Shown: piece after piece, positions 19,596 through 53,591 of the stretch
How positions within the stretch are numbered: position 1 is the stretch's first letter
How the letters are laid out: every line of letters begins with the position of its first letter
Made by a program: the position numbers and the translations under genes
The notes under the pieces: generated by a model
What the model saw: only the letters and a program-made list of their open reading frames with translations
Told to the model about the DNA's origin: nothing
Databases searched by the model: none
Source of the DNA: Trypanosoma brucei
Lineage: Eukaryota
DNA: 64,000 nucleotides
Direction of reading: 5' to 3'
Assembly: GCA_000002445.1 (NCBI GenBank)
Contig: CP000069.1
Coordinates: 192,001-256,000, forward strand

Positions 19596-19621
19596 CACGC
19601 AGCCCTGTAGACTTCTGCGTG
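19596..19621 (+). promoter_or_regulatory. Procyclin 3' UTR conserved stem-loop ('16-mer' element) downstream of a U-rich tract
   Basis: cacgcag-ccctgtagactt-ctgcgtg is a perfect 7-bp inverted repeat flanking a 12-nt loop, ~200 nt after the stop codon. It is preceded by a U-rich block (19525-19580, candidate 26-mer/U-rich element). The same loop sequence with compensatory stem changes occurs in the GPEET 3' UTR (34385-34406). Confidence 0.6.
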
Positions 19622-20370: not shown

Positions 20371-20508
20371 TCTCCCATATTCTTCGGGGCGGTATTGCAG
20401 TGAAAGTGCCATGCGGGACGCGTGTCAGAGCAGTGTTTGTCTCCCATATTCTTCGGGGCGGTATTGCAGTGAAAGTGCCATGCGGGACGCGTGTCAGAGC
20501 AGTGTTTG
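20371..20508. repeat. 69-bp perfect tandem duplication in the EP-PAG intergenic region (copy 1 20371-20439, copy 2 20440-20508)
   Basis: tctcccatattcttcggggcggtattgcagtgaaagtgccatgcgggacgcgtgtcagagcagtgtttg occurs twice head-to-tail. The same duplication is at 27778-27915 in unit 2, but only a single copy is present in unit 3 (~36483-36551). Confidence 0.9.
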
Positions 20509-22626: not shown

Positions 22627-25600
22627 TTTGTGATTAATTTGGTAATTGCTTTGTGTGGTGTCGCTTTTTTTTTTTCTTTGTGGAGGGGAGGAGGAGGGAT
22701 GTTGTATTTGTGTGCAGTTGTTTTCAAATTAATTATAAATTTGGTAACAAAAATTTCTGCAAATGTTGCTTTTGACTGTGTTTGAGCGTGGCTGTTGGGA
22801 CGTTGACGGGGAATCGCCACGGCAGGGTCATTTCCCGAGAGGGTGCCGATACGTTGTGTTACTTTTTCATTTTCACATCGCGCAAGGATATGGGTATGCT
22901 ACTATTAACAAATCATTTAGCTCCTATCTAGTACGCTCCGCTGCGGCAGAAAAATAAGGGGCCACGAGCCAAATTCTATGTGTCTACGAGCACTGTCAGC
23001 CTTCCAAGGACTCTCGGATCTCTATCGCAGCGAGTTTAGGTTAAAAGTGGGATGAAGAACTCCTCCTTCTGCTTGTTCCGGCCGAACATAGAGGCGTGAC
23101 GGCAGCTCCTTCGTTTCCATCCACGGAGGACACAACATTCGCTGAATTATCTCTTAATGGAGCGTTTTTTTGTTTTTAAGTGTAAAATAACTGTCTGGTG
23201 TATATATATATATATATTGACTGAAAGAAGGAGTCGAGAGCGTCTTTTCCGAGTGCACTTTTCTCCGGCGGATCTCCCACTAACCTGTGGCGTAGGGCTA
23301 TGGCTCCCAAAACACGTGTAAACACTACTGTATGATGTGGGTTATCGTGTTCATTGGCGTGGTAGTACTCTTTAATCCAGCGTATTCCATGTTTGATGTC
23401 ATTGTGTATTTAGAAGCCCACTTTGGAGTAGATCCTTATCCCGGCCTCGGAGGGGATACTGCACACAGTTGCAACGCGTTGACGATGGAGCTCAGGGGCG
23501 CTGTTGGTTAGGTTTTCAAGTTTTGGAGTGACCCAATCTGTGTATTTTCTAGAGCTGAACCGTTAAGCTGCTGAGGGATGCATATTTATGCGGTCACTGT
23601 TAACTTCAGATGAGTTGTTCATCTGCTGAAGCCGTTTCCCCGGACGGTGGCTCTTTATCTCCCTATGTGTTATCCTGGCTTCACTTTGTAAGGCCGCTGC
23701 CTTCACTAGGTTTGTTTTCCTGGTGTCTGACCCTTTTCTGTGGAGGTATCCCGCCTTTCAATTTGCTTGCGATGTTGCATTCCCTGAACTGTGGCGGATT
23801 TGATTCTGTAGCCTTTTCCGTTGGGAGAGCCAAACTCTCAGTCATTCTCCAACCCTGTGTTTCACCACTTGTTTTTACTTTGTTTTTATACCTTCGTTTG
23901 ATTCTGTAATTTTCGTTGCGCGTTTAGTCTGCGCCTACTCCGCTCTCACTGTTTATCTTCAGTTACTTGCTCACAGAAAGTCTGAGCAGATTCGTGGCAG
24001 CTTGTTCCCACTTTACGCATTTATCGACGGGCAAATTCTCGTTACCCTGCGAAGGTGCTCTGGGACTTGGTAAGTAATCAGCTTCTTTTGCTGGCACAAC
24101 ATTTCGGTTTGTTTCAGTAGCTTGGTGACGAGACGTTTTATCACCATCTGGGTTTTACTGTTTCTCGCCTGTGTCTACGTGGCCGTTGTTTTGTGGCTTA
24201 ACCGTCCCTCTGGACTGAATGTTTGAAGCTATATTCATGAAGAACTGCGCGAGTTCCACGTATTGGTTCCTTCCTTTTCTGTTCCACTGCGCTCATCAAC
24301 CCCATTCCTTCTCATCCTTGGTGTCCTCGAGTTTTTGGAGGAAGTGCCTGATCGTCTCTCGGTATTCTGTTCTTCCGTTGTTGCGAACCTCCCTTCACTT
24401 CCCTTCCCGACTGTGCACTATTTTTTGTTTTTGCACCACGTAAGTCTGGCTTGTCTGAGGAGTTTCAAATATTACCCTGAACGCCGCCTGCTTTCCGTTG
24501 TTATGTTCCACCTCTTTGTGCCTCCATCCGTAGTTGTTCCTGGGGCGATGACAATTCCAGGATCGTGCTACCGTGTGTGCGTTAGATTACCGCCCCCTGC
24601 ATCAAGTAGGACATACTGAATCCGCGAAGGCTCTCCGGCTTTCGTGAGGTGTTTCTAGCAACTATCACCTTTGTTTCTTCAACTTCTTGATTTATTGTCT
24701 TTTACTCATCTATTATCTCCCTTTTCTTTAGGTCCTGCATGTCAAAAAGTATACTGTCATATTGGGCGGGAAATCATATCATAACTGTGGTATGGTTTTG
24801 AGGGTTGCAGTCTTTTACCGTGCTGGTTAGCTCCACGGCCTCCACCGAAAAGGGGAGAGCCCGAACGCTGGTTTCCCCATTTCCCCGTCTTTTCGATCAA
24901 GAACCCCTTGCTTTTAGTAGGTATTAGATCGGTAACTGGGAGATTGTAGCGGGTGTTCGTGTGTGGGGAGCGTTGCGCACTCGCACGGTTTTAAAATGGT
25001 TGTTATGTCAAAGCTGTTATTTCCCTTTTGTTCACTATGCCATTTGTTAACCATCTTCCAGTTGTTTGTTATACTCCTATCGATGGATTGTCACTCCTTC
25101 AAATATGGTGCTGTAGTTTGAATACTCTCTTGGTGTGCCGCAAAGTGTGGGATACATAACGTGCCACAAGCTAGCGCTTCCAAGGGGGTTTAAACTCGGG
25201 AACTGTGAGTGTGAGTCTCGAACCAATGCGATGGTTCTGGTCTGCGCTGAAGGACATTTTATAGGGCCCCCGGATCCTCCCTGTGCCCAACTCGGTGATG
25301 CTGAGGTCGATGAATTCCTTCGTTCGCTACGAAACAAAGCATTGGGTTTGGTGGCATTTAGTGCGGTGCCTTCGATGGTGTTGTGCTTTCCTCTCCTGGA
25401 ATGTGCTGGCTCGGGTTAAGATTTTAGCGGGTGCGGGGGAATGCGGCCCAACTTTTTTGCGCGAAATCTCTTGCATTGACTTGCCGCGTAACCCATGGTG
25501 GTTTCGTCAGCCTGGTAGGAGCTGAGACAGCAGCATAATGGGTGGATTCTCGTATCCATTCGTGTGGGCATGCTCCCCACTTGCATGGGTTCCATTTTTG

Positions 25601-26059
25601 AAACATTGGTGCACTGGGGGTGTGTTCCGTAGGAAGGGCCGCGCGGTTGGGGCTTTAAAAGCACGACTGTAACATCTATATAGTGAAGTGGCGGGTGTAC
25701 GAGTTGGGAGTGCAACATTTGAGTGCGGTGTTTGTCCTGCATGCCCCCGACTGCTGGTTTTCAGACTTCTTCGATGCCCGGTGTTTCGTAGCAAAACATA
25801 CCGCTGCCGGCCTAAATGCCGCTGATTCACCACAAAGTGCTTTTCAGTGCCCCCAAACTGGATTGCCAAACTTCTGACAAGTGTATTGTTCCGAGTATGG
25901 TGAGCGAATCCCTTCTCTATTATCAATTCTCGAAAACTCTTCGGGAGTCAGGGCCCACGGAACCGAGGGGGCGGATGAGGGAGAGGGGGAAACAACAATT
26001 CCGCACCGCGAACAGGCACCGCTCCCCTGGACCTCTTCCTCAGATGTGAGGTGCAGTCA

Positions 26060-26320
26060 GCCTTTGTTGTCATTGGGGTTAAGCGGAAAGGTGTGTGTCA
26101 GTAGGTTGTGAGGTGAAAGCGTTTTCAGATGCATAGTGAGCTTAATGTCCTTTTCACAGTATATCGTGTCTGATAGGTATCTCTTATTAGTATAGTCGAA
26201 TACTAGTCAATAGTGCATTTTGTGCAAAATGTCCATTTTGTGGCAGTGATGGGGTTGCTTTATGCTATTCCGTGTCTTGATGGTCATACATTGAAAATAG
26301 GGGTTATCGGGTGAGTACTG
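26060..26320 (+). promoter_or_regulatory. Presumptive procyclin promoter region, unit 2 copy
   Basis: Sequence identical to 18640-18900, shifted by 7419 bp. Same positional inference. Confidence 0.3.
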
Positions 26321-26427
26321 AGTTTAACATGTTCTCGTGATCGCTGCACGCGCCTTCGAGTTTTTTTTCCTTTTCCCCATTTTTTTCAACTTGAAGACTT
26401 CAATTACACCAAAAAGTAAAATTCACA

Positions 26428-26799
26428 ATGGCACCTCGTTCCCTTTATCTGCTCGCTATTCTTCTGTTCAGCGCGAACCTCTTCTCTGGCGTGGGATTTG
26501 CCGCAGCCGCTGAAGGACCAGAAGACAAGGGTCTTACTAAGGGAGGCAAAGGCGGGAAGGGAACCAAGGTCAGCGACGACGATACCAATGGCACTGACCC
26601 CGACCCCGAACCTGAACCTGAACCTGAACCTGAACCTGAACCCGAACCCGAACCTGAACCTGAACCGGAACCTGAACCTGAACCCGAACCTGAACCGGAA
26701 CCCGAACCCGAACCTGAACCTGAACCTGGTGCTGCAACGCTGAAGTCTGTTGCGCTTCCGTTCGCAATTGCGGCCGTTGGTCTCGTTGCCGCATTCTAA
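26428..26799 (+). CDS. EP: EP procyclin, 2 DP + 20 EP repeats
   Basis: 123-aa ORF identical to the unit-1 EP gene except for two fewer dipeptide repeats (12 nt shorter). Same signal peptide, NGT sequon and GPI signal. Confidence 0.95.
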
Positions 26800-27002
26800 G
26801 CTCATGTAAAGAGAAATCTTTTTGGAGGGTCAAAACTTTTTAACAAGGGTGACCCCAACTGTTTATTTAACCCTTCCTTTGGCGCGATGCGCTCGCTTCA
26901 TGGCGTTCCTTTGTGACAGGACACTGACACGCATAATATTTTTTTCAACCCATTTTTTTGAGTTCTATTTTTTGTTTTATGTCTTGGAACCGTCGGCGGT
27001 AG

Positions 27003-27028
27003 CACGCAGCCCTGTAGACTTCTGCGTG
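27003..27028 (+). promoter_or_regulatory. Procyclin 3' UTR stem-loop, unit 2 copy
   Basis: Identical cacgcagccctgtagacttctgcgtg hairpin. Confidence 0.6.
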
Positions 27029-27777
27029 TGCCTGTCAATGTGTTCCTTGGCTCTTTTCAAACGGCTTCTTTTATCTTACCGTTCATATGGTTTTGTCAAA
27101 AATTCATTCACTGCATTTGTGGTCCTCTCCTATGTCTCGTTCCTGCAATGGTTGACAGCAACCTCTTCCATTTGTGACTGAACTTTTTTTTTTTCAAACT
27201 TTTTGCCTTGTCCTTTTTTCGTACTGGGAAAATAGTTCCTTCTAAAACCTCAGGCTAGAAATGGGAGACAAATGGACTTTTGTTGACTCAAGCGATTTGT
27301 CCCTCGATATTTCCTCCATCGCAGCTTCCGTTTGACACCGTGGAGTTGCAACATGGGAAGCAGCGGTTGAAGGAAGCACATTCCTGGTGATGATGCCTTC
27401 TTCGCCTACGGTGGTGCATCATCATGTTTGTTAATATGTCGGGGAAACTTTAAAGCACCTTGAGGGAGTTCACCGTAACTGTTCAAAATTGAGGCCTGAG
27501 CGGTGTTTTGCCTTTTGACTTGCCTTTATTTAACTGTTCTCGTCAGGGGAGCGATTCAGTTGAGTGAGCTGCTGCCACTTTATCTGTTGGGGAGGAGAGG
27601 CTGCGGAGAGGGTAAGCGCGTTGTTTCCATGAACTTTACGTATTTACTGCACTGCCCTCTGTTTTGGTCCACTTTGTGAAATACTCTGGGACAATCAATG
27701 GAGAGTGTGAGATTTTTTGAAATACTTCTGGAGCATTCACCGGCTCGTCGGTCGTCATATGTTCTCGCAGTGTTTTC

Positions 27778-27915
27778 TCTCCCATATTCTTCGGGGCGGT
27801 ATTGCAGTGAAAGTGCCATGCGGGACGCGTGTCAGAGCAGTGTTTGTCTCCCATATTCTTCGGGGCGGTATTGCAGTGAAAGTGCCATGCGGGACGCGTG
27901 TCAGAGCAGTGTTTG
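27778..27915. repeat. 69-bp tandem duplication, unit 2 copy
   Basis: Same duplicated 69-mer as at 20371-20508. Confidence 0.9.
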
Positions 27916-28659
27916 ATGTTCCGGAAGTCTTCGGAGTTAGAGGGCAAATGCTCCTCTTCTCCTTTCGTGCGGCGTGATTCTCATACCGAGGCTTCCACTA
28001 AGCAGGCTGCAACTCTTCTGCTGACTTTTTGGTTTATTCTTTTCCCATATTTCAGTGTTGGAGTGTTTCTCTTGCCGCCCTTGGGAATCGGGCACAGTCA
28101 TATGAAGGCGCTTGCTTCGGCAGCCAAAGGTGGTTCCGTTTGGTATTTCTTGTGGAGACATTTGTCTTCCTTTCCTTTTCGGCCACCTCTTTTCCCATGG
28201 AGAAAGGCCTCTGGTACTGTCCTGCCCGATGATCTTTGCCCCGTTCGTTCCATCATGAATAATAGTTACAAAAGTGTGTGTCGGTACGGCGGTGGATATT
28301 TCCCCAATCGCTTTGGTTGCTTTTACTATTTTGTGGGGCGGTTTAAAGTTGGTAACTCAGTGCACTTCCAAAAAAATTGCGACTCGTACATTTGGTTTTA
28401 TATGGAGGGTGGAAGAGCCGAAAACGTGTATGTGCTTGCTTGGATGAGTCGGAAAATAAATTCTAGTTTCCGTGTATTTTCCGTTCATTACGTCATATAT
28501 GGCTTGGCCTTTAGATTTGTGTAAGGTATGTTTCTTTTCGAAGTTGGTATGCTGGCGGACGTGTTTGTTTAATGTAAATCAGCCAAGGTGTAAGAGTAGC
28601 TGTAATGATAAGTTTCTGCTTCTCCCTTTTTTACTGATGAATGTAGAAACAAAATCACA

Positions 28660-30033
28660 ATGAGGCACGAATTAGTGTTTACCATTGGGTTGTTTGTGGC
28701 TGTTTTATCTGATTCTTCTCAGATATTTTTGCCGCACTGGCGCGATTGGATCCAGGTATCTAAAAACGGGAGTATACTTACAACTCTCGTTAGTGAAGTC
28801 AACAACCACCACAGCATTGGTGAATTCGAGGCACTTTGCAAGATTTACAGAATCACACAAGCGGAGACCCCGAAGCCTTCCTTTAAGAATCGTGAGAAGG
28901 AAGCTGAGATTCTGAAGAAGTTGGAGGAAATGGTCAGTGAAACTGAGGCTGTGGGTGGTGATAAAGGTTCAAGTAAGTTGGGTAAAAGAACGACGGCATA
29001 TCAGGAGATAAAGATACTTTTTGAGAAGGCGAAAAAGCTGAAGGAAGAAATAGAAGTGAATAGGACAAGATCGCTAAATGCAAGTCGTTCTGCTGAGGAA
29101 AATATGTTGAGAGCTGTGTATGGCGACGCTGTGGATGTGGCGAGAAATGAAAATAAAACTCTGGAGGAAGCCATGAGAGGAAACAAATCACTACTGTTCA
29201 ACAGTGTTGATCATGCAAATATGAGTTGTGGTTCTTACGGAGACAAACTGGTTGGAAAGACACTGATCAATGACTTTTTCTGCCTATGTGTGGGAGAGGC
29301 GACAGATTTACAAATAAGAAGCAATAAGTATTATGCACTCGACTTAAACTCAACTAATCACACTGTGTATAATGGGTTTAACTGTCCCTGCAAGGATGAA
29401 ATAAGGAGACCTAAACATGGAAGTTGGACTATGATGGCTGATTATTGCCCAAGCAACTATAATACTTGCGACCCTAGAAAGGTAAAATACAACCATACTG
29501 AGGCATGGGATGTGATTAGTAAAGCTTGCGTGTACAAAAATGTTGCATCGAATGTGAAAACTCTGAAGAGTGCACTAGCTCAGTTTGATGCGTTGGTGAA
29601 TTTAGAGCAGGATAATTATCAAATGAAGGGTATTCTTGGGTACGCGGATATTTCAGAAAACACAAATCGCATCTGCAACGGTTATACTGCTGGATTCACG
29701 TGTGTCAGTTACAATTACACACTTGAAAATGGTGGAATTCCATGGTACAACCGCCTCACTAACGCCACCAAGGAACTACAAGAAATGGCGAAGTATGCCA
29801 AAGAAGCTGACAGTCATCTTTACGAATTGGAAGAGTACCAACATGAGGCAGAGGAAATATATCTTGAAGTGAAACTTGGTGGTGATGCAGAGCTATGGAA
29901 GAGTAGCCGAGGTAAAGGCGAAGGTGACGGTGAAGGTGATGATACTGATGTAAATAATGATGGGCTCAACTATATAAATATTACAACTGACTTTCTTATA
30001 TTATTGTTTTCATCTTTCATTTGTATATCTTAG
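28660..30033 (+). CDS. PAG: Procyclin-associated gene product (PAG family), identical to the unit-1 copy
   Basis: 457-aa ORF, 100% identical in protein sequence to 21253..22626. Confidence 0.75.
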   Translation: MRHELVFTIGLFVAVLSDSSQIFLPHWRDWIQVSKNGSILTTLVSEVNNHHSIGEFEALCKIYRITQAETPKPSFKNREKEAEILKKLEEMVSETEAVGGDKGSSKLGKRTTAYQEIKILFEKAKKLKEEIEVNRTRSLNASRSAEENMLRAVYGDAVDVARNENKTLEEAMRGNKSLLFNSVDHANMSCGSYGDKLVGKTLINDFFCLCVGEATDLQIRSNKYYALDLNSTNHTVYNGFNCPCKDEIRRPKHGSWTMMADYCPSNYNTCDPRKVKYNHTEAWDVISKACVYKNVASNVKTLKSALAQFDALVNLEQDNYQMKGILGYADISENTNRICNGYTAGFTCVSYNYTLENGGIPWYNRLTNATKELQEMAKYAKEADSHLYELEEYQHEAEEIYLEVKLGGDAELWKSSRGKGEGDGEGDDTDVNNDGLNYINITTDFLILLFSSFICIS

Positions 30034-33000
30034 TTTGTGATTAATTTGGTAATTGCTTTGTGTGGTGTCGCTTTTTTTTTTTCTTTGTGGAGGGGAGGAG
30101 GAGGGATGTTGTATTTGTGTGCAGTTGTTTTCAAATTAATTATAAATTTGGTAACAAAAATTTCTGCAAATGTTGCTTTTGACTGTGTTTGAGCGTGGCT
30201 GTTGGGACGTTGACGGGGAATCGCCACGGCAGGGTCATTTCCCGAGAGGGTGCCGATACGTTGTGTTACTTTTTCATTTTCACATCGCGCAAGGATATGG
30301 GTATGCTACTATTAACAAATCATTTAGCTCCTATCTAGTACGCTCCGCTGCGGCAGAAAAATAAGGGGCCACGAACAAAATTCTATGTGTCTACGAGCAC
30401 TGTCAGCCTTCCAAGGACTCTCGGATCTCTATCGCAGCGAGTTTAGGTTAAAAGTGGGATGAAGAACTCCTCCTTCTGCTTGTTCCGGCCGAACATAGAG
30501 GCGTGACGGCAGCTCCTTCGTTTCCATCCACGGAGGACACAACATTCGCTGAATTATCTCTTAATGGAGCGTTTTTTTGTTTTTAAGTGTAAAATAACTG
30601 TCTGGTGTATATATATATATATATTGACTGAAAGAAGGAGTCGAGAGCGTCTTTTCCGAGTGCACTTTTCTCCGGCGGATCTCCCACTAACCTGTGGCGT
30701 AGGGCTATGGCTCCCAAAACACGTGTAAACACTACTGTATGATGTGGGTTATCGTGTTCATTGGCGTGGTAGTACTCTTTAATCCAGCGTATTCCATGTT
30801 TGATGTCATTGTGTATTTAGAAGCCCACTTTGGAGTAGATCCTTATCCCGGCCTCGGAGGGGATACTGCACACAGTTGCAACGCGTTGACGATGGAGCTC
30901 TGGGGCGCTGTTGGTTAGGTTTTCAAGTTTTGGAGTGACCCAATCTGTGTATTTTCTAGAGCTGAACCGTTAAGCTGCTGAGGGATGCATATTTATGCGG
31001 TCACTGTTAACTTCAGATGAGTTGTTCATCTGCTGAAGCCGTTTCCCCGGACGGTGGCTCTTTATCTCCCTATGTGTTATCCTGGCTTCACTTTGTAAGG
31101 CCGCTGCCTTCACTAGGTTTGTTTTCCTGGTGTCTGACCCTTTTCTGTGGAGGTATCCCGCCTTTCAATTTGCTTGCGATGTTGCATTCCCTGAACTGTG
31201 GCGGATTTGATTCTGTAGCCTTTTCCGTTGGGAGAGCCAAACTCTCAGTCATTCTCCAACCCTGTGTTTCACCACTTGTTTTTACTTTGTTTTTATACCT
31301 TCGTTTGATTCTGTAATTTTCGTTGCGCGTTTAGTCTGCGCCTACTCCGCTCTCACTGTTTATCTTCAGTTACTTGCTCACAGAAAGTCTGAGCAGATTC
31401 GTGGCAGCTTGTTCCCACTTTACGCATTTATCGACGGGCAAATTCTCGTTACCCTGCGAAGGTGCTCTGGGACTTGGTAAGTAATCAGCTTCTTTTGCTG
31501 GCACAACATTTCGGTTTGTTTCAGTAGCTTGGTGACGAGACGTTTTATCACCATCTGGGTTTTACTGTTTCTCGCCTGTGTCTACGTGGCCGTTGTTTTG
31601 TGGCTTAACCGTCCCTCTGGACTGAATGTTTGAAGCTATATTCATGAAGAACTGCGCGAGTTCCACGTATTGGTTCCTTCCTTTTCTGTTCCACTGCGCT
31701 CATCAACCCCATTCCTTCTCATCCTTGGTGTCCTCGAGTTTTTGGAGGAAGTGCCTGATCGTCTCTCGGTATTCTGTTCTTCCGTTGTTGCGAACCTCCC
31801 TTCACTTCCCTTCCCGACTGTGCACTATTTTTTGTTTTTGCACCACGTAAGTCTGGCTTGTCTGAGGAGTTTCAAATATTACCCTGAACGCCGCCTGCTT
31901 TCCGTTGTTATGTTCCACCTCTTTGTGCCTCCATCCGTAGTTGTTCCTGGGGCGATGACAATTCCAGGATCGTGCTACCGTGTGTGCGTTAGATTACCGC
32001 CCCCTGCATCAAGTAGGACATACTGAATCCGCGAAGGCTCTCCGGCTTTCGTGAGGTGTTTCTAGCAACTATCACCTTTGTTTCTTCAACTTCTTGATTT
32101 ATTGTCTTTTACTCATCTATTATCTCCCTTTTCTTTAGGTCCTGCATGTCAAAAAGTATACTGTCATATTGGGCGGGAAATCATATCATAACTGTGGTAT
32201 GGTTTTGAGGGTTGCAGTCTTTTACCGTGCTGGTTAGCTCCACGGCCTCCACCGAAAAGGGGAGAGCCCGAACGCTGGTTTCCCCATTTCCCCGTCTTTT
32301 CGATCAAGAACCCCTTGCTTTTAGTAGGTATTAGATCGGTAACTGGGAGATTGTAGCGGGTGTTCGTGTGTGGGGAGCGTTGCGCACTCGCACGGTTTTA
32401 AAATGGTTGTTATGTCAAAGCTGTTATTTCCCTTTTGTTCACTATGCCATTTGTTAACCATCTTCCAGTTGTTTGTTATACTCCTATCGATGGATTGTCA
32501 CTCCTTCAAATATGGTGCTGTAGTTTGAATACTCTCTTGGTGTGCCGCAAAGTGTGGGATACATAACGTGCCACAAGCTAGCGCTTCCAAGGGGGTTTAA
32601 ACTCGGGAACTGTGAGTGTGAGTCTCGAACCAATGCGATGGTTCTGGTCTGCGCTGAAGGACATTTTATAGGGCCCCCGGATCCTCCCTGTGCCCAACTC
32701 GGTGATGCTGAGGTCGATGAATTCCTTCGTTCGCTACGAAACAAAGCATTGGGTTTGGTGGCATTTAGTGCGGTGCCTTCGATGGTGTTGTGCTTTCCTC
32801 TCCTGGAATGTGCTGGCTCGGGTTAAGATTTTAGCGGGTGCGGGGGAATGCGGCCCAACTTTTTTGCGCGAAATCTCTTGCATTGACTTGCCGCGTAACC
32901 CATGGTGGTTTCGTCAGCCTGGTAGGAGCTGAGACAGCAGCATAATGGGTGGATTCTCGTATCCATTCGTGTGGGCATGCTCCCCACTTGCATGGGTTCC

Positions 33001-33469
33001 ATTTTTGAAACATTGGTGCACTGGGGGTGTGTTCCGTAGGAAGGGCCGCGCGGTTGGGGCTTTAAAAGCACGACTGTAACATCTATATAGTGAAGTGGCG
33101 GGTGTACGAGTTGGGAGTGCAACATTTGAGTGCGGTGTTTGTCCTGCATGCCCCCGACTGCTGGTTTTCAGACTTCTTCGATGCCCGGTGTTTCGTAGCA
33201 AAACATACCGCTGCCGGCCTAAATGCCGCTGATTCACCACAAAGTGCTTTTCAGTGCCCCCAAACTGGATTGCCAAACTTCTGACAAGTGTATTGTTCCG
33301 AGTATGGTGAGCGGACCCCTTCTCTATTATCAATTCTCAAAAACTCTTCGGGAGTCAGGGCCCACGGAACCGAGGGGGCGGATGAGGGAGAGGGGGAAAC
33401 AACAATTCCGCACCGCGAACAGGCACCGCTCCCCTGGACCTCTTCCTCAGATGTGAGGTGCAGTCAGCC

Positions 33470-33730
33470 TTTGTTGTCATTGGGGTTAAGCGGAAAGGTG
33501 TGTGTCAGTAGGTTGTGAGGTGAAAGCGTTTTCAGATGCATAGTGAGCTTAATGTCCTTTTCACAGTATATCGTGTCTGATAGGTATCTCTTATTAGTAT
33601 AGTCGAATACTAGTCAATAGTGCATTTTGTGCAAAATGTCCATTTTGTGGCAGTGATGGGGTTGCTTTATGCTATTCCGTGTCTCTGGGTGGGCGTGCAT
33701 TGAAAATAGGGGTTATCGGGTGAGTACTGA
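33470..33730 (+). promoter_or_regulatory. Presumptive procyclin promoter region upstream of GPEET (variant copy)
   Basis: Same upstream sequence as units 1 and 2, except for a block substitution at ~33680-33696 (tctgggtgggcgtg versus ttgatggtcatac). Confidence 0.35.
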
Positions 33731-33836
33731 GTTTAACATGTTCTCGTGATCGCTGCACGCGCCTTCGAGTTTTTTTTCCTTTTCCCCATTTTTTTCAACT
33801 TGAAGACTTCAATTACACCAAAAAGTAAAATTCACA

Positions 33837-34181
33837 ATGGCACCTCGTTCCCTTTATCTGCTCGCTATTCTTCTGTTCAGCGCGAACGTCTTCGCTGGCG
33901 TGGGATTTGCCGCAGCCGCTGATGAGTCGGCTAGCAACGTTATCGTGAAGGGAGGCAAAGGAAAGGAGAGGGAGGACGGCCCTGAGGAGCCGGAAGAAAC
34001 CGGACCAGAAGAGACCGGACCAGAAGAAACCGGACCAGAAGAGACGGGGCCGGAGGAGACGGGGCCGGAAGAGACGGGACCAGAGGAAACTGAACCTGAA
34101 CCTGAACCTGGTGCTGCAACGCTGAAATCTGTTGCACTTCCGATTGCAGTCGCGGCTGCTGCTCTCGTTGCCGCATTCTAA
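33837..34181 (+). CDS. GPEET: GPEET procyclin
   Basis: 114-aa ORF. It has the same signal peptide family ([27 protein letters not shown]), then EEPEET followed by six GPEET pentapeptide repeats, then EPEPEPG and the GPI signal [22 protein letters not shown]. There is no N-glycosylation site, as expected for GPEET. Confidence 0.95.
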
Positions 34182-34384
34182 GCGGATGCAAGCGTGTGAA
34201 GCGCCTCGGAGGAACGAAACCCCTTTGAAAAGGTGGCTTTCGTTTATATATTCTCCATCTGGTGCATCGTGTTTATTTCGTATTATTCCCTGTCAAAAGC
34301 TGCGGATATTCATTTAATATTCTTTTCGTTATATTTTTTTAGTTCTATCCTTTATTTTATCCGTTTTAATCGTCTTCTGAGACC

Positions 34385-34406
34385 CACAGCCCTGTAGATT
34401 TCTGTG
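34385..34406 (+). promoter_or_regulatory. GPEET 3' UTR stem-loop (16-mer-like element)
   Basis: cacag-ccctgtagattt-ctgtg has a loop almost identical to the EP element, with the stem maintained by different bases. Confidence 0.55.
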
Positions 34407-35114
34407 ATGTTTCGGTTGCGTATTCCATAATTTTAAGCGTTTCACTTCTATTTTTTTTCATTCCTTTGAATTTGGATCTTAAAATTATTATTGGTGCCTT
34501 GTGTTATTGTGCGTGCTGCGTGTGAATTTGGTGCTCTGCCTTTTAATTTGTTGGATGAGCTATTTCATTAATTTTTTTGCCTTCTCTTCTTTTGGGTTCG
34601 AATAATAGTTCCTTCTAAACCTTCAGGCCAGAAATGGGAAACAAGTGTTAGACCGGCCAACTTGGGCGAAGGGGTCTGCATGTTGCTTTATTTCATTGGT
34701 GGTTTTATGTGCAGTGTTTCCCTGCTTCAGATGGGCCCCGCAGCTGAAGTTGTTTCGCTGCCCTGCCCCCCACTGCTGCGTTGCTGCTGGAGAAACGATG
34801 TTGGAGGTTGACGGGTGTGTGCTTTTGAAGACTTTGTATGAATATGGAAGGAAGCTCGCAGCGGTTACTACAGGCAGTTAAGGGCTGAGTGCTGTGCCTT
34901 TTCTATTGCCTCTCCCCCTCTTGAGCTATTCTTGTCGGGAGAGTGATTTATATATCCGAGTTTCGGTTAATTGTCCCTTAGGGATGAAAGGCACCTCAGA
35001 GATGAGAGGGCAATGCAACGCTGGTTATCCCAGTTGATGTGCGCATTCATATATACCATTTCCCCATTTTTTTCAACTTGAAGACTTCAATTACACCAAA
35101 AAGTAAAATTCACA

Positions 35115-35504
35115 ATGGCACCTCGTTCCCTTTATCTGCTCGCTGTTCTTCTGTTCAGCGCGAACCTCTTCGCTGGCGTGGGATTTGCCGCAGCCGCTGA
35201 AGGACCAGAAGACAAGGGTCTTACTAAGGGAGGCAAAGGCAAAGGCGGGAAGGGAACCAAGGTCAGCGACGACGATACCAATGGCACTGACCCTGAACCC
35301 GAACCTGAACCTGAACCTGAACCTGAACCCGAGCCAGAGCCAGAACCTGAACCGGAACCCGAACCCGAACCTGAACCTGAACCTGAACCCGAACCTGAAC
35401 CCGAGCCAGAGCCAGAACCAGAACCTGAACCTGGTGCTGCAACGCTGAAGTCTGTTGCACTTCCGTTTGCAATCGCGGCCGTTGGTCTCGTTGCCGCATT
35501 CTAA
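35115..35504 (+). CDS. EP: EP procyclin (EP3 position, downstream of GPEET), 1 DP + 23 EP repeats
   Basis: 129-aa ORF with GKGKGGKG (one extra GK), an NGT sequon, DP(EP)23 using GAG/CCA codon variants, and a GPI signal. Only the last ~55 bp before the ATG (poly-pyrimidine tract and splice-acceptor region) match the other procyclin upstream regions. The 930-bp GPEET-EP spacer (34182-35114) is otherwise unique. Confidence 0.95.
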
Positions 35505-35707
35505 GCTCATGTAAAGAGAAATCTTTTTGGAGGGTCAAAACTTTTTAACAAGGGTGACCCCAACTGTTTATTTAACCCTTCCTTTGGCGCGATGCGCTCG
35601 CTTCATGGCGTTCCTTTGTGACAGGACACTGACACGCATAATATTTTTTTCAACCCATTTTTTTGAGTTCTATTTTTTGTTTTATGTCTTGGAACCGTCG
35701 GCGGTAG

Positions 35708-35733
35708 CACGCAGCCCTGTAGACTTCTGCGTG
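35708..35733 (+). promoter_or_regulatory. Procyclin 3' UTR stem-loop, unit 3 EP copy
   Basis: Identical cacgcagccctgtagacttctgcgtg hairpin. Confidence 0.6.
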
Positions 35734-37295
35734 TGCCTGTCAATGTGTTCCTTGGCTCTTTTCAAACGGCTTCTTTTATCTTACCGTTCATATGGTTTTG
35801 TCAAAAATTCATTCACTGCATTTGTGGTCCTCTCCTATGTCTCGTTCCTGCAATGGTTGACAGCAACCTCTTCCATTTGTGACTGAACTTTTTTTTTTTC
35901 AAACTTTTTGCCTTGTCCTTTTTTCGTACTGGGAAAATAGTTCCTTCTAAAACCTCAGGCTAGAAATGGGAGACAAATGGACTTTTGTTGACTCAAGCGA
36001 TTTGTCCCTCGATATTTCCGCCATCGCAGCTTCCGTTTGACACCGTGGAGTTGCAACATGGGAAGCAGCGGTTGAAGGAAGCACATTCCTGGTGATGATT
36101 CCTTCCTCGCCTACGGTGGTGCATCATCATGTTTGTTAATATGTCGGGGAAACTTTAAAGCACCTTGAGGGAGTTCACCGTAACTGTTCAAAATTGAGGC
36201 CTGAGTGGTGTTTTGCCTTTTGACTTGCCTTTATTTAACTGTTCTCGTCAGGGGAGCGATTCAGTTGAGTGAGCTGCTGCCACTTTATCTGTTGGGGAGG
36301 AGAGGCTGTGGAGAGGGTAAGCGCGTTGTTTCCATGAACTTTACGTATTTACTGCACTGCCCTCTGTTTTGGTCCACTTTGTGAAATACTCTGGGACAAT
36401 CAATGGAGAGTGTGAGATTTTTTGAAATACTTCTGGAGCATTCACCGGCTCGTCGGTCGTCATATGTTCTCGCAGTGTTTTCTCTCCCATATTCTTCGGG
36501 GCGGTATTGCAGTGAAAGTGCCATGCGGGACGCGTGTCAGAGCAGTGTTTGATGTTCCGGAAGTCTTCGGAGTTAGAGGGCAAATGCTCCTCTTCTCCTT
36601 TCGTGCGGCTTGATTCTCATACCGAGGCTTCCACTAAGCAGGCTGCAACTCTTCTGCTGACTTTTTGGTTTATTCTTTTCCCATATTTCAGTGTTGGAGT
36701 GTTTCTCTTGCCGCCCTTGGGAATCGGGCACAGTCATATGAAGGCGCTTGCTTCGGCAGCCAAAGGTGGTTCCGTTTGGTATTTCTTGTGGAGACATTTG
36801 TCTTCCTTTCCTTTTCGGCCACCTCTTTTCCCATGGAGAAAGGCCTCTGGTACTGTCCTGCCCGATGATCTTTGCCCCGTTCGTTCCATCATGAATAATA
36901 GTTACAAAAGTGTGTGTCGGTACGGCGGTGGATATTTCCCCAATCGCTTTGGTTGCTTTTACTATTTTGCGGGGCGGTTTAAAGTTGGTAACTCAGTGCA
37001 CTTCCAAAAAAATTGCGACTCGTACATTTGGTTTTATATGGAGGGTGGAAGAGCCGAAAACGTGTATGTGCTTGCTTGGATGAGTCGGAAAATAAATTCT
37101 AGTTTCCGTGTATTTTCCGTTCATTACGTCATATATGGCTTGGCCTTTAGATTTGTGTAAGGTATGTTTCTTTTCGAAGTTGGTATGCTGGCGGACGTGT
37201 TTGTTTAATGTAAATCAGCCAAGGTGTAAGAGTAGCTGTAATGATAAGTTTCTGCTTCTCCCTTTTTTACTGATGAATGTAGAAACAAAATCACA

Positions 37296-38660
37296 ATGAT
37301 GCACGAATTAGTGTTTATCATTGGGTTGTTTGTGGCTGTTTTATCTGTTTCTTCTCAGAGCGATTTGTCGAGACACAATTGGAGCATAATATCTAGAAAC
37401 CGGAGTGTGTTTACAAAACTCGTTAGTGAGCTCAACAACCACCACAGCATTGGTGAATTCGAGGCACTTTGCAAGATTTACAGAATCACACAAGCGGAGA
37501 CACCGAAGTCTTCCTTTAAGAATCGTGAGAAGGAAGCTGAGATTCTGAAGAAGTTGGAGGAGATGGTCAGTGAAACTGAGGCTGTGGGTGGTGATAAAGG
37601 TTCAAGTAAGTTGGGTAAAAGAACGACGGCATATCAGGAGATAAAGATACTTCTTGAGAAGGCGAAAAAGCTGAAGGAAGAAATAGAAGTAAATAGGACA
37701 AGATCGCTAAATGCAAGTCGTTCTGCTGAGGAAAATATGTTGAGAGCTGTGTATGGCGACGCTGTGGATGTGGCGAGAAATGAAAATAAAACTCTGGAGG
37801 AAGCCATGAGAGGAAACAAATCACTACTGTTCAACAGTGTTGATCATGCAAATATGAGTTGTGGTTCTTACGGAGACAAACTGGTTGGAAAGACACTGAT
37901 CAATGACTTTTTCTGCCTATGTGTGGGAGAGGCTATAGATGTACAAATAAGAAGCAATATGTTTTCGGGACTCGAGTTAAGCTCGAATTACCACCCTGTG
38001 TATAATGGGTTTAACTGTCCCTGCAAGGATGAAATAAGGAGACCCCAAAATGGAAGTTGGACTATGATGGCTGATTATTGCCCAAGCAACTATAATACTT
38101 GCGACCCTAGAAAGGTAAAATACAACCATACTGAGGCATGGGATGTGATTAGTAAAGCTTGCGTGTACAAAAATGTTGCATCGAATGTGAAAACTCTGAA
38201 GAGTGCACTAGCTCAGTTTGATGCGTTGGTGAATTTAGAGCAGGATAATTATCAAATGAAGGGTATTCTTGGGTACGCGGATATTTCAGAAAACACAAAT
38301 CGCACATGCAACGGTCATACTGCTGGATTCACGTGTGTCAGTTACAATTACACACTTGAAAATGGTGGAATTCCATGGTACAACCGCCTCACTAACGCCA
38401 CCAAGGAACTACAAGAAATGGCGAAGTATGCCAAAGAGGCTGACAGTCATCTTCATGAATTGGAAGAGTACCAACATGAGGCAGAGGAAATATATCTTGA
38501 AGTGAAACTTGGTGGTGATGCAGAGCTATGGAAGAGTAGCCGAGGTAAGGGTTACAGTGGAGGTGATGATACTGATGTAAATAATGATGGGCTCAACTAT
38601 ATAAATATTACAACTGACTTTCTTATATTATTGTTTTCATCTTTTATTTGTATATCTTAG
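37296..38660 (+). CDS. PAG: Procyclin-associated gene product (PAG family), diverged/mosaic paralogue
   Basis: 454-aa ORF collinear with the 457-aa PAGs. It is near-identical over most of its length, but has clustered substitutions at residues ~2-45 (MMHELVFIIGLFVAVLSVSSQSDLSRHNWSIISRNRSVFTKLVSEL) and ~213-240 (AIDVQIRSNMFSGLELSSNYHPVY), and GKGYSGGDD replaces GKGEGDGEGDD. Confidence 0.75.
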   Translation: MMHELVFIIGLFVAVLSVSSQSDLSRHNWSIISRNRSVFTKLVSELNNHHSIGEFEALCKIYRITQAETPKSSFKNREKEAEILKKLEEMVSETEAVGGDKGSSKLGKRTTAYQEIKILLEKAKKLKEEIEVNRTRSLNASRSAEENMLRAVYGDAVDVARNENKTLEEAMRGNKSLLFNSVDHANMSCGSYGDKLVGKTLINDFFCLCVGEAIDVQIRSNMFSGLELSSNYHPVYNGFNCPCKDEIRRPQNGSWTMMADYCPSNYNTCDPRKVKYNHTEAWDVISKACVYKNVASNVKTLKSALAQFDALVNLEQDNYQMKGILGYADISENTNRTCNGHTAGFTCVSYNYTLENGGIPWYNRLTNATKELQEMAKYAKEADSHLHELEEYQHEAEEIYLEVKLGGDAELWKSSRGKGYSGGDDTDVNNDGLNYINITTDFLILLFSSFICIS

Positions 38661-41600
38661 TTTGTGATTAATTTGGTAATTGCTTTGTGTGGTGTCGCTT
38701 TTTTTTTTTCTTTGTGGAGGGGAGGAGGAGGGATGTTGTATTTGTGTGCAGTTGTTTTCAAATTAATTATAAATTTGGTAACAAAAATTTCTGCAAATGT
38801 TGCTTTTGACTGTGTTTGAGCGTGGCTGTTGGGACGTTGACGGGGAATCGCCACGGCAGGGTCATTTCCCGAGAGGGTGCCGATACGTTGTGTTACTTTT
38901 TCATTTTCACATCGCGCAAGGATATGGGTATGCTACTATTAACAAATCATTTAGCTCCTATCTAGTACGCTCCGCTGCGGCAGAAAAATAAGGGGCCACG
39001 AGCCAAATTCTATGTGTCTACGAGCACTGTCAGCCTTCCAAGGACTCTCGGATCTCTATCGCAGCGAGTTTAGGTTAAAAGTGGGGTGAAGAACTCCTCC
39101 TTCTGCTTGTTCCGACCGAACATAGAGGCGTGACGGCAGCTCCTTCGTTTCCATCCACGGAGGACACAACATTCGCTGAATTATCTCTTAATGGAGCGTT
39201 TTTTTGTTTTTAAGTGTAAAATAACTGTTTGGTGTATATATATATATATATATATATATATTGACTGAAAGAAGGAGTCGAGAGCGTCTTTTCCGAGTGC
39301 ACTTTTCTCCGGCGGATCTCCCACTAACCTGTGCCGTAGGGCTATGGCTCCCAAAACACGTGTAAACACTACTGTATGATGTGGGTTATCGTGTTCATTG
39401 GCGTGGTAGTACTCTTTAATCCAGCGTATTCCATGTTTGATGTCATTGTGTATTTAGAAGCCCACTTTGGAGTAGATCCTTATCCCGGCCTCGGAGGGGA
39501 TACTGCACACAGTTGCAACGCGTTGACGATGGAGCTCTGGGGCGCTGTTGGTTAGGTTTTCAAGTTTTGGAGTGACCCAATCTGTGTATTTTCTAGAGCT
39601 GAACCGTTAAGCTGCTGAGGGATGCATATTTATGCGGTCACTGTTAACTTCAAATGAGTTGTTCATCTGCTGAAGCCGTTTCCCCGGACGGTGGCTCTTT
39701 ATCTCCCTATGTGTTATCCTGGCTTCACTTTGTAAGGCCACTGCCTTCACTAGGTTTGTTTTCCTGGTGTCTGACCCTTTTCTGTGGAGGTATCCCGCCT
39801 TTCAATTTGCTTGCGATGTTGCATTCCCTGAACTGTGGCGGATTTGATTCTGTAGCCTTTTCCGTTGGGAGAGCCAAGCTCTCAGTCATTCTCCAACCCT
39901 GTGTTTCACCACTTGTTTTTACTTTGTTTTTATACCTTCGTTTGATTCTGTAATTTTCGTTGCGCGTTTAGTCTGCGCCTACTCCGCTCTCACTGTTTAT
40001 CTTCAGTTACTTGCTCACAGAAAGTCTGAGCAGATTCGTGGCAGCTTGTTCCCACTTTACGCATTTATCGACGGGCAAATTCTCGTTACCCTGCGAAGGT
40101 GCTCTGGGACTTGGTAAGTAATCAGCTTCTTTTGCTGGCACAACATTTCGGTTTGTTTCAGTAGCTTGGTGACGAGACGTTTTATCACCATCTGGGTTTT
40201 ACTGTTTCTCGCCTGTGTCTACGTGGCCGTTGTTTTGTGGCTTAACCGTCCCTCTGGACTGAATGTTTGAAGCTATATTCATGAAGAACTGCGCGAGTTC
40301 CACGTATTGGTTCCTTCCTTTTCTGTTCCACTGCGCTCATCAACCCCATTCCTTCTCATCCTTGGTGTCCTCGAGTTTTTGGAGGAAGTGCCTGATCGTC
40401 TCTCGGTATTCTGTTCTTCCGTTGTTGCGAACCTCCCTTCACTTCCCTTCCCGACTGTGCACTATTTTTTGTTTTTGCACCACGTAAGTCTGGCTTGTCT
40501 GAGGAGTTTCAAATATTACCCTGAACGCCGCCTGCTTTCCGTTGTTATGTTCCACCTCTTTGTGCCTCCATCCGTAGTTGTTCCTGGGGCGATGACAATT
40601 CCAGGATCGTGCTACCGTGTGTGCGTTAGATTACCGCCCCCTGCATCAAGTAGGACATACTGAATCCGCGAAGGCTCTCCGGCTTTCGTGAGGTGTTTCT
40701 AGCAACTATCACCTTTGTTTCTTCAACTTCTTGATTTATTGTCTTTTACTCATCTATTATCTCCCTTTTCTTCAGGTCCTGCATGTTAAAAAGTATACTG
40801 TCATATTGGGCGGGAAATCATATCATAACTGTGGTATGGTTTTGAGGGTTGCAGTCTTTTACCGTGCTGGTGGCGGCTTTGCCGTCAGAATTCTTGCCGC
40901 ATACTTTGAGGTTGTATGTGCTATTCATGAATTTACGATATTCTTTTGCTATATCTTCTGAGCCAGCAGCGGCTTTGCCCGACGGAGCACAACAGCAGTC
41001 ATTTTCATTCAGCCTTTCCGCAACTGCCCTCCTCGCATATCATACTCACCGTCCACACAACATAACTTCCAATTTTATTGAAAAAGAAATTACACAACAG
41101 ATCTTGCTTGACATTTCCCCCCATATGCTGTGTCGTGTTTTACTTGGTCCTTAACCTCTGCCGCATCATTTTCTTTCTGCATCTATGTCTGACGTGCCTT
41201 TCTGCCATGCAAATGTTCAGTCATGCTCCGCGCTTACATTGCTCGTCGACCTTCGCCATGTCGCCATGTCAGCGTTGTATGCTCCTCGGTCTCCTATTTG
41301 AAACTTTGTGATATCCATCGCTGCCTCTTGTTTCGTCGGAAGTCAGGGATATATTTCACGTTCCTTCACCGCCTTGTCAGACCACGCAAGCACGTCCTGT
41401 ATGTTGCTCCTGAAGGTTGACCACGCCCTCTTTGGTAAGCCCCACCGTATTTCTCATTGCTTCGATGGTTATTTTGTAGTAATTTGTTCCCGTATCATCT
41501 CTCTGCCTCCCGTATGGGTCGTCACAAAATCCCTTCCGCATTTGGATGTTAGCGTGTTCGGCGGCGTATTCCTCTGACCTGACATTTTCCCCCGCTGTCT

Positions 41601-53590: not shown

Positions 53591-53591
53591 A

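What the first reader, a model, noticed from the sequence alone, without database searches (positions are those of the whole stretch)
37296..38660. Third PAG copy is a mosaic: two short, sharply bounded divergent patches in an otherwise identical gene
Compared with the 457-aa copies, the unit-3 PAG is nearly identical, except for dense substitutions confined to codons ~2-45 and ~213-240 and a small indel in the acidic tail. The flanking intergenic DNA remains nearly identical. Such patchwork is the signature of segmental gene conversion from a more distant paralogue, for example PAG genes of the other procyclin locus, rather than gradual divergence.
Basis: seen in the sequence. Interest (0 to 1): 0.5.

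Follow-up and report, generated by a model that had tools for sequence, protein, structure and literature searches.

The report
Patchwork GRESAG2 copies, procyclin locus
The three tandem surface-protein genes beside the procyclin genes of Trypanosoma brucei do differ only in a few short, sharply bounded patches, but the gene is GRESAG2.1 rather than a PAG, two of the three patches are the odd ones in the two 457-aa copies rather than in the third copy, and this kind of patch swapping is ordinary for the ESAG2 gene family.

Summary
Copy 3 (37296-38660) differs from the two identical 457-aa copies at 59 substitutions and two in-frame indels. Of these, 24 substitutions lie in 84 nt, 18 in 116 nt, and 4 plus a 6-nt indel in the tail. 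Flanking non-coding DNA differs by about 0.4%.

The interpretation needs three corrections.
1. The window is T. brucei TREU927 chromosome 6. The gene is GRESAG2.1, an ESAG2-family member with a VSG_B domain. PAG3 is the separate 202-aa ORF upstream, and PAG1/2/4/5 belong to an unrelated family, so they cannot be donors.
2. Two other alleles (T. b. gambiense DAL972 and the published GRESAG 2.1 allele) match copy 3 almost exactly in the N-terminal patch (one or two of 29 sites differ) and exactly in the tail. The 457-aa copies therefore carry the derived patches. The middle patch has changes on both lineages.
3. None of about 30 accessible family members matches any patch better than the local copies do.

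Segmental exchange is still the best explanation. Synonymous divergence is also raised inside the patches, and the patches coincide with family hypervariable regions. Other strains' alleles carry central tracts traceable to chromosome 1, 3 and 11 paralogues. This gene cluster was earlier reported as positively selected. The result is a new example of a known process, of modest interest.

The parts
37296..38660 (+). GRESAG2.1 copy 3 (454 aa), unit 3. It is 100% identical to XP_845177, named 'GRESAG2, putative'.
   Evidence: Pfam VSG_B E=3.7e-24
21253..22626 (+). GRESAG2.1 copy 1 (457 aa), unit 1. It carries the derived patch 1 and the derived tail.
   Evidence: (P0017 = XP_845170/XP_845173)
28660..30033 (+). 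GRESAG2.1 copy 2 (457 aa), unit 2. Its protein is identical to copy 1.
37360..37431 (+). Patch 1 (codons 22-46, start of the mature N-terminus), in copy-3 coordinates. The equivalent positions are 21317-21391 in copy 1 and 28724-28798 in copy 2. Copy 3 matches the DAL972 and Q03849-type alleles here, and all changes are private to copies 1 and 2. The minimum tract is 72 nt. The maximum is about 153 nt (37349-37501).
37934..38049 (+). Patch 2 (codons 213-252), the hypervariable loop between the CLCVGEA and CPCKDE motifs. The equivalent positions are 21894-22009 and 29301-29416. All four alleles differ here, and the polarity is mixed.
38547..38560 (+). Tail patch (GKGYSGGDD in copy 3, GKGEGDGEGDD in copies 1 and 2), including a 6-nt indel. 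The equivalent positions are 22507-22526 and 29914-29933. Copy 3 matches the other strains. Both tail types occur elsewhere in the ESAG2 family.
36552..37160 (+). The real PAG3 ORF of unit 3 (202 aa). The other copies are at 20509-21117 and 27916-28524.
   Evidence: XP_845169/172/176, 'procyclin associated gene 3'
17379..24797 (+). Tandem unit 1: EP procyclin 19009-19392, PAG3, GRESAG2.1.
24798..32204 (+). Tandem unit 2: EP procyclin 26428-26799, PAG3, GRESAG2.1. It is 99.6% identical to unit 1 over 9.1 kb.
32205..40871 (+). Tandem unit 3: GPEET 33837-34181, EP 35115-35504, PAG3, GRESAG2.1. It is colinear with the single unit of DAL972.

Best explanation
The 454- and 457-aa genes are the three GRESAG2.1 copies of the triplicated EP3/PAG3/GRESAG2 procyclin unit on T. 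brucei TREU927 chromosome 6. GRESAG2.1 belongs to the ESAG2 family, whose members are b-type-VSG-like and predicted to be GPI-anchored surface glycoproteins.

The two gene types differ because short tracts were exchanged by homologous recombination or gene conversion with a diverged ESAG2-family sequence. The tracts run from tens of nucleotides to about 150 nt and lie in the family's hypervariable regions. High identity in the conserved flanks allows strand invasion, and the hypervariable stretches come across as blocks.

For the N-terminal patch and the tail, the recipient was the ancestor of units 1 and 2, before those two units duplicated. Copy 3 keeps the sequence also found in T. b. gambiense and in the published GRESAG 2.1 allele. 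The middle patch carries changes on both lineages.

The donor is unsampled. Each patch variant is still closest to the other local variant, so the donor was probably a GRESAG2.1-like sequence: either a diverged allele in the population or an unannotated copy. It was not one of the annotated chromosome 1, 3, 9 or 11 paralogues or a known expression-site ESAG2.

Shown: the clustering, the polarity of patch 1 and the tail, family membership, and mosaicism of other alleles with traceable paralogue tracts.
Inferred: that the TREU927 patches arose by conversion, and what the donor was.
For: - Clustering: 24 substitutions in 84 nt and 18 in 116 nt, against 0.4% in 3 kb of non-coding flank. None of 20000 permutations reached this.
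- Synonymous divergence is also raised in the patches. dS is 0.13, 0.26 and 0.74 in the three patches, against 0.028 in the rest of the CDS. Purely synonymous codon differences number 6 of 93 patch codons against 4 of 361 elsewhere, Fisher p=0.0066. In-frame indels lie inside two of the patches.
- Polarity: at 27-28 of 29 patch 1 sites and 10 of 10 tail sites, the DAL972 and Q03849-type alleles carry the copy-3 state. Copy 3 is 99-100% identical to DAL972 over CDS 1-490 and 1146-1365.
- The patches coincide with family hypervariable regions. Column entropy is 1.48 bits at differing positions against 0.51 bits elsewhere, p=1e-12.
- Exchange happens at this gene. The DAL972 allele has a chromosome-1-like tract at CDS 531-576 (13 consecutive informative sites, up to 99% identity in a 90-nt window). 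It also has a chromosome-11-like tract at CDS 900-1001 (23 sites, 93-96%).
- The Q03849-type allele has a 565-nt central block of about 125 differences, and its protein resembles the TREU927 chromosome 3 paralogue P0002.
- The TREU927 copies share a chromosome-3a-like tract at CDS 963-1002.
- Recombinant ESAG2 genes, including an N-terminal 1-54 swap, are documented in PMC2533676.
Against: - No donor was found. For the copy-1/2 version of patch 1, the best non-local DNA identity is 44-58%, against 69-72% to copy 3. For patch 2, other sequences reach at most 69%, against 79-87% between the local copies. No similar 11-mers or short BLAST hits turned up in the window or in any fetched locus.
- Patch 1 has dN/dS of about 2, so selection on amino-acid change may contribute.
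- The synonymous excess rests on few sites.
- Only two non-TREU927 alleles were available for polarising the changes.
- TREU927 paralogue DNA, pseudogenes and subtelomeric copies could not be searched.
Confidence: 0.62

Rival explanations
1. Relic model. Two old GRESAG2.1 lineages, either allelic classes or an old duplication, diverged throughout the gene. Concerted evolution between units or alleles later homogenised everything except the hypervariable patches. The patches escaped either because divergence blocks heteroduplex formation or because diversity there is selected. TREU927 then captured both types in tandem by unequal crossing-over.
For: - Each patch variant is most similar to the other local variant rather than to any paralogue, as expected for sister lineages.
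- No donor was found.
- Outside the patches, copy 1 shares polymorphisms with the Q03849-type allele and copy 3 shares them with DAL972. There are 7 'abab' sites, which suggests two haplotype backgrounds.
- The patches coincide with hypervariable regions.
Against: - The copy-1/2 patch type is absent from both other sampled strains.
- DAL972 has a single unit, and AnTat1.1 is reported to be single-copy (PMC4288722). An old duplication would therefore need repeated loss.
- The model needs near-perfect homogenisation right up to the patch edges, including 3 kb of non-coding DNA at 0.4%.
Confidence: 0.2
2. In-place diversifying (positive) selection on exposed loops without recombination. This is the published reading for this three-gene GRESAG2 cluster (PMC2386149: 5% of sites, dN/dS 17.7).
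For: - dN/dS is about 2 in patch 1.
- The differences sit in family hypervariable regions.
- N-glycosylation sequons differ between the types: NWS at residue 28, NGS at 252 and NRT at 335 occur only in copy 3, and NST at 230 and NHT at 233 only in copies 1 and 2.
- PAML site tests were significant in PMC2386149.
Against: - Synonymous differences and indels are also concentrated in the patches.
- Patch divergence of 15-29% sits beside 0.4% in unconstrained flanks, which requires an implausible local substitution rate.
- That study did not test for recombination, which is known to inflate such tests, as its own methods section notes.
- The gene is frameshifted in two other strains and disrupted in T. 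evansi. That argues for weak constraint rather than strong selection.
Confidence: 0.1
3. One reading: copy 3 is the converted recipient, and the donors are PAG1/2/4/5 of the chromosome 10 procyclin locus.
For: The patches are real and sharply bounded. A few middle-patch sites are private to copy 3 (CDS 696, 700, 750, 751).
Against: - The gene belongs to the ESAG2 family (VSG_B).
- PAG1/2/4/5 are ESAG6/7-like, a-type (PMC3605285).
- Patch 1 and the tail of copy 3 match other strains' alleles almost exactly (27-28 of 29 patch 1 sites, 10 of 10 tail sites), so copy 3 is unchanged there.
Confidence: 0.03
4. Assembly artefact. Allelic haplotypes or mis-joined clones were laid out as a tandem triplication, so the 'copies' are really alleles or chimeras.
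For: The locus is a near-identical 7.4-8.6 kb tandem repeat, which is hard to assemble. Other strains have one unit (PMC4288722).
Against: - Units 1 and 2 independently carry identical patches yet differ at 5 other sites.
- The triplication is accepted in the literature, and read depth over it is higher in TREU927 than in T. evansi (PMC4288722).
- Even if the copies were allelic, the patchwork itself would remain.
Confidence: 0.03

Closest known systems
ESAG2 / GRESAG2 family of T. brucei (b-type-VSG-derived surface glycoprotein genes; GRESAG 2.1 of the procyclin PARP A / GPEET-PAG3 unit)
   Same: - 100% identity to the annotated TREU927 GRESAG2.
- 64-73% identity to ESAG2 proteins.
- VSG_B domain.
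- It is the last gene of the chromosome 6 procyclin unit, downstream of PAG3, as the literature describes.
   Different: Nothing differs at the level of gene identity. TREU927 has three intact copies, whereas DAL972 and the Q03849-type allele are single, frameshifted copies.
Recombinant (type A / type B) ESAG2 genes in bloodstream expression sites (Young et al. 2008, PMC2533676)
   Same: Segment swaps are bounded by conserved sequence and include an N-terminal block (residues 1-54) and internal tracts. The hypervariable regions coincide, and there is evidence of diversifying selection.
   Different: - Here the gene sits in a chromosome-internal Pol I procyclin unit rather than a telomeric expression site.
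- The tracts are shorter (72-150 nt).
- No donor is identified.
Positive-selection call for the TREU927 GRESAG2 paralogue cluster (Emes and Yang 2008, PMC2386149)
   Same: It concerns the same three genes (454-457 aa) and the same divergent sites.
   Different: That study attributes the divergence to dN/dS>1 at 5% of sites. The clustering, the synonymous excess, the indels and the comparison with other strains shown here point to recombination as the primary cause.
PAG1/PAG2/PAG2* chimeras of the chromosome 10 procyclin loci
   Same: These are procyclin-unit genes that share long identical stretches and then diverge abruptly, and PAG2* is a fusion (PMC2731899, PMC4288722). The general behaviour of patchwork by recombination is the same.
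   Different: They belong to a different gene family (ESAG6/7-like). They are large fusions rather than short internal patches, and they are not homologous to the gene in question.

Membership tests
ESAG2/GRESAG2 family | Significant full-length similarity to ESAG2 proteins | tested here: met
   15 family clusters at E from 1e-216 to 1e-101, 64-73% identity over 97-100% of the query. Source names are ESAG2 or GRESAG2.
ESAG2/GRESAG2 family | b-type VSG N-terminal-domain relationship | tested here: met
   Pfam PF13206 VSG_B, E=3.7e-24. A family profile gives a weak hit to VSG 615 (8ok8), E=7e-6. The AlphaFold model was too poor to add anything (pLDDT 45).
ESAG2/GRESAG2 family | GRESAG2.1 position: last gene of the chromosome 6 procyclin Pol I unit, downstream of PAG3 | tested here: met
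   The gene order is procyclin(s), PAG3 ORF, this gene, in all three units and in DAL972. This matches PMC2731899.
Procyclin-associated genes PAG1/2/4/5 (ESAG6/7-like, Fam14) | Homology to ESAG6/7 and a-type VSG | tested here: not met
   The only Pfam hit is VSG_B. All homologues are ESAG2/GRESAG2. The family assignment of PAG1/2/4/5 is taken from PMC3605285. Their sequences were not aligned here.
PAG3 | Identity with the annotated PAG3 ORF | tested here: not met
   PAG3 is the 202-aa ORF at 36552-37160, 27916-28524 and 20509-21117 (XP_845176/172/169). It is not the 454/457-aa ORF.
Segmental (ectopic or allelic) gene conversion | Differences clustered in sharply bounded tracts within otherwise near-identical sequence | tested here: met
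   the scan statistic was reached by none of 20000 permutations.
Segmental (ectopic or allelic) gene conversion | Silent-site divergence raised inside the tracts, indicating a different history rather than selection alone | tested here: met
   dS is 0.13-0.74 in the patches against 0.028 elsewhere. Purely synonymous codon differences number 6 of 93 against 4 of 361, p=0.0066. The counts are small.
Segmental (ectopic or allelic) gene conversion | An identifiable donor that matches the tract better than the sister copy does | tested here: not met
   - No such donor exists for the TREU927 patches among about 30 family proteins and 5 paralogue or allele DNA sequences.
- The criterion is met for tracts in the DAL972 allele, from chromosome 1 and chromosome 11 paralogues.
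- Unannotated TREU927 copies could not be tested.
Segmental (ectopic or allelic) gene conversion | Conflicting site patterns between segments among alleles | tested here: met
   Four-allele patterns: aabb 57, abab 7, abba 4, and block-wise private runs.

The most novel reading that the evidence does not exclude
The copy-1/2 and copy-3 versions of the N-terminal, loop and tail patches could be two old allelic forms of GRESAG2.1 surface loops, kept in the T. brucei population by balancing selection. TREU927 would have captured both in one tandem array. More broadly, the chromosome-internal, procyclin-linked GRESAG2.1 would act as a regular exchange partner with dispersed and expression-site ESAG2 genes. 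That would link the two kinds of Pol I unit through recombination.
Probability: 0.15. Interest if true: 0.45.

Novelty: new member of a known kind. Interest (0 to 1): 0.25.

Why it matters
- It corrects the label and the direction of the event for a well-used reference locus.
- It suggests that a published positive-selection call for this GRESAG2 cluster more likely reflects recombination than selection alone.
- GRESAG2.1 alleles from three strains are all different mosaics. A population-genomic statement that GRESAG2 lies in strongly conserved windows and that ESAGs lack VSG-like recombination (PMC4224348) may therefore reflect read mapping to one reference.
- Beyond that, the biology is expected for this family. 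The gene has no known function and is a pseudogene in several strains.

Tried and rejected
- Short-peptide database search. A 91-aa query (the copy-1 N-terminus) returned 'no candidate shares three 5-residue words', although its own cluster is in the database. I treat this as a tool limitation, not as evidence.
- TREU927 paralogue DNA. The exact-protein look-ups for P0002, P0007, copy 1 and the unit-3 PAG3 ORF are not on record. TREU927 paralogues could therefore be compared only as proteins.
- More GRESAG2.1 alleles.
  - The PAG3-ORF look-up returned only five contigs from one run series (ERR79291xx), all the same allele.
  - The cysteine-peptidase look-up gave a contig from assembly GCA_001457755.2 that stops 2.7 kb beyond the peptidase gene, short of GRESAG2.1.
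- Local donor search. 11-mer and short-BLAST searches of the patch sequences found nothing in the window or in any fetched locus, on either strand.
- Structure. The AlphaFold2 model built on the 16-sequence alignment had pLDDT 45. It was too poor to map the patches, so I ran no fold search.
- Frameshift or inversion as the cause of patch 1. Rejected, because the DNA itself differs at 24 of 84 positions.

Full report
[quoted passage not shown] The haptoglobin-haemoglobin receptor gene lies at 14178-15458 (Pfam HpHbR, E=1.8e-101).

Downstream of it are three tandem units: 17379-24797, 24798-32204 and 32205-40871. Units 1 and 2 each hold one EP procyclin gene, a 202-aa ORF and a 457-aa ORF. Unit 3 holds GPEET, EP, the 202-aa ORF and the 454-aa ORF.

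NCBI names the 202-aa ORFs 'procyclin associated gene 3' and the 454/457-aa ORFs GRESAG2. The literature describes exactly this arrangement: a triplication of EP3/PAG3/GRESAG2 in TREU927 with GPEET only before the last unit (PMC4288722). It also places GRESAG2.1 as the last gene of the chromosome VI procyclin unit (PMC2731899).

The ORF in the finding is therefore GRESAG2.1, not a PAG. Its only Pfam domain is VSG_B, and all its homologues are ESAG2/GRESAG2. PAG1/2/4/5 are ESAG6/7-like relatives of a-type VSG (PMC3605285).

**The observation.** Copies 1 and 2 encode identical proteins, and copy 3 is 91% identical to them. Across the 4.4-kb alignment of unit 3 with units 1 and 2 there are 71 substitutions:

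| Region (unit 3 coordinates) | Substitutions | Length | Density |
|---|---|---|---|
| 37348-37431 (plus a 3-nt indel) | 24 | 84 nt | 28.6% |
| 37934-38049 | 18 | 116 nt | 15.5% |
| 38547-38560 (plus a 6-nt indel) | 4 | 14 nt | 28.6% |
| Rest of the CDS | 13 | 1151 nt | about 1% |
| 5' flank | 3 | 824 nt | 0.36% |
| 3' flank | 9 | 2211 nt | 0.41% |

No random placement out of 20000 reached the observed maximum of 24 substitutions in a 90-nt window. The pattern is real and is not due to chance.

**Which copy is the odd one.** With only two sequence types in the window, direction cannot be inferred, so I fetched other alleles.

- T. b. gambiense DAL972 has a single GPEET/EP/PAG3/GRESAG2 unit next to HpHbR (L010).
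- A second allele (L001, from runs ERR7929156-164) encodes exactly the published GRESAG 2.1 fragment Q03849.

In a four-way alignment, all 26 differences in bins 37312-37431 and all 10 in the tail are private to copies 1 and 2. Copy 3, DAL972 and the Q03849-type allele agree there. Over CDS 1-136, 27 of 29 differing sites in the Q03849-type allele and 28 of 29 in DAL972 carry the copy-3 state. In the tail, 10 of 10 do.

Copy 3 is 99-100% identical to DAL972 over CDS 1-490 and 1146-1365. Copy 3 is also closer than copy 1 to the DAL972 paralogues within patch 1 (65-71% against 54%).

Copy 3 therefore keeps the common GRESAG2.1 sequence in patch 1 and the tail, and the changes belong to the ancestor of units 1 and 2. 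The isolated differences at codons 2, 8 and 18 are polymorphisms shared with one or other strain. The true patch 1 is 37360-37431, with a maximum tract of 37349-37501.

In patch 2 all four alleles differ. Where the flanks of the loop can be aligned, CDS sites 639, 641 and 754 are derived in copies 1 and 2, and sites 696, 700, 750 and 751 are derived in copy 3.

**What made the patches.**

- Nei-Gojobori estimates give dS of 0.13, 0.26 and 0.74 in the three patches, against 0.028 in the rest of the CDS. dN/dS is about 2 in patch 1 and below 1 in patch 2.
- Purely synonymous codon changes number 6 of 93 patch codons against 4 of 361 elsewhere (p=0.0066).
- Together with the in-frame indels and the 40- to 70-fold contrast with unconstrained flanks, this indicates that the patches have a different and older history than their surroundings. 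That points to recombination rather than in-place substitution alone.
- The differing residues fall in the ESAG2 family's own hypervariable regions (mean column entropy 1.48 against 0.51 bits, p=1e-12): the start of the mature N-terminus, the loop between CLCVGEA and CPCKDE, and the stretch before the hydrophobic C-terminus.

**Does exchange happen at this gene?** Yes.

- The DAL972 allele is copy-3-like at both ends. It carries a chromosome-1-paralogue-like tract at CDS 531-576 (13 consecutive informative sites, up to 99% in a 90-nt window). It also carries a chromosome-11-like tract at CDS 900-1001 (23 sites, 93-96%).
- The Q03849-type allele has a 565-nt central block with about 125 differences from both TREU927 types. 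Its protein resembles the TREU927 chromosome 3 paralogue P0002.
- Both TREU927 types share a chromosome-3a-like tract at CDS 963-1002.
- Both tail types (YSG and DGE/EGD) recur among expression-site and dispersed ESAG2 genes.
- Recombinant ESAG2 genes, including a swap of residues 1-54, are documented for expression sites (PMC2533676).

**Donor search.** The accessible set comprised 7 other TREU927 paralogues, 7 from DAL972, 4 from T. equiperdum and about 10 Lister 427 expression-site ESAG2 proteins. DNA was available for four DAL972 paralogues and two alleles.

Nothing in this set matches copy-1/2 patch 1, either version of patch 2, or the copy-1/2 tail better than the other local copy does. 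Each patch variant remains closest to its local counterpart: 69-72% DNA identity in patch 1 and 79-87% in patch 2, against at most 58% and at most 69% for anything else.

The donor, if there was one, was probably a GRESAG2.1-like sequence, meaning a diverged allele or an unannotated copy.

**Rival readings.** Four were considered.

1. Relic model. Two old lineages were homogenised everywhere but the hypervariable patches. It fits the sister-like similarity of the patch variants and the two haplotype backgrounds (7 sites where copy 1 agrees with Q03849 and copy 3 agrees with DAL972). It needs either an old duplication lost elsewhere or an unsampled allelic class.
2. Pure positive selection. This is the published reading for this very cluster (PMC2386149: three genes of 454-457 aa, 5% of sites, dN/dS 17.7). 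That study did not test for recombination, and selection does not explain the synonymous and indel clustering.
3. The original PAG-donor, copy-3-recipient version. It is contradicted by family membership and by polarity.
4. Assembly artefact. It is unlikely, and it would not remove the patchwork.

**Verdict.** This is a genuine mosaic pattern that was mislabelled and mis-polarised. It is best explained by short-tract recombination within the ESAG2/GRESAG2 family, with the donor unknown. It is a new instance of a known process in a gene of unknown function that is frameshifted in DAL972 and in the Q03849-type allele and disrupted in T. evansi.

Noticed in passing
L010 10001-11383 and L001 837-2198 (equivalent to window 37296-38660): GRESAG2.1 is frameshifted in both non-TREU927 alleles. 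The Q03849-type allele has a 4-nt deletion at CDS 585-588 and a 2-nt deletion at 648-649. DAL972 has indels of -2, +17, +2 and +1 nt. All three TREU927 copies are intact ORFs.
   Followed up: partly
L010, equivalent to window ~36812-36856 (inside the PAG3 ORF): The DAL972 PAG3 ORF has its own sharply bounded patch of 13 substitutions in about 45 nt. It is absent from all three TREU927 units and from the Q03849-type allele. This looks like another short conversion tract, perhaps from one of the roughly 30 PAG-like sequences reported in PMC2731899.
   Followed up: no
window 19009-19392, 26428-26799, 35115-35504: The three EP procyclin genes differ in repeat length (127, 123 and 129 aa) and in a few N-terminal residues. 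The exact protein sequences of all three are absent from the protein collection.
   Followed up: no
window 39235-39244: Unit 3 has a 10-nt (TA)5 insertion relative to units 1 and 2 in the region downstream of GRESAG2.1. It is a simple microsatellite length difference.
   Followed up: no
window 14178-15458: This is the haptoglobin-haemoglobin receptor gene (Pfam HpHbR, E=1.8e-101), immediately upstream of the first procyclin unit. The listed ORF starts at a TTG, and the DAL972 call is 403 aa, so the real start is probably an internal ATG.
   Followed up: partly
window ~40900-46000: This is a convergent strand-switch region. Plus-strand units end near 40.9 kb, and minus-strand genes begin at about 44.6 kb, including a Peptidase_C1 gene at 46072-47094. 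The GC skew changes sign at about 40 kb. It corresponds to the known Pol I termination zone downstream of GRESAG2.1.
   Followed up: no
window 52000-54000: This is a markedly AT-rich stretch (GC 0.35 against about 0.5 around it) that overlaps a 358-aa minus-strand ORF at 53592-54668. It was not examined.
   Followed up: no
L004 10001-11362 (DAL972 chromosome 3 paralogue P0004): This paralogue looks mosaic itself. Its central loop resembles the TREU927 chromosome 1 paralogue P0021, and its tail resembles the TREU927 chromosome 3 paralogue P0002. This suggests family-wide patch exchange.
   Followed up: no
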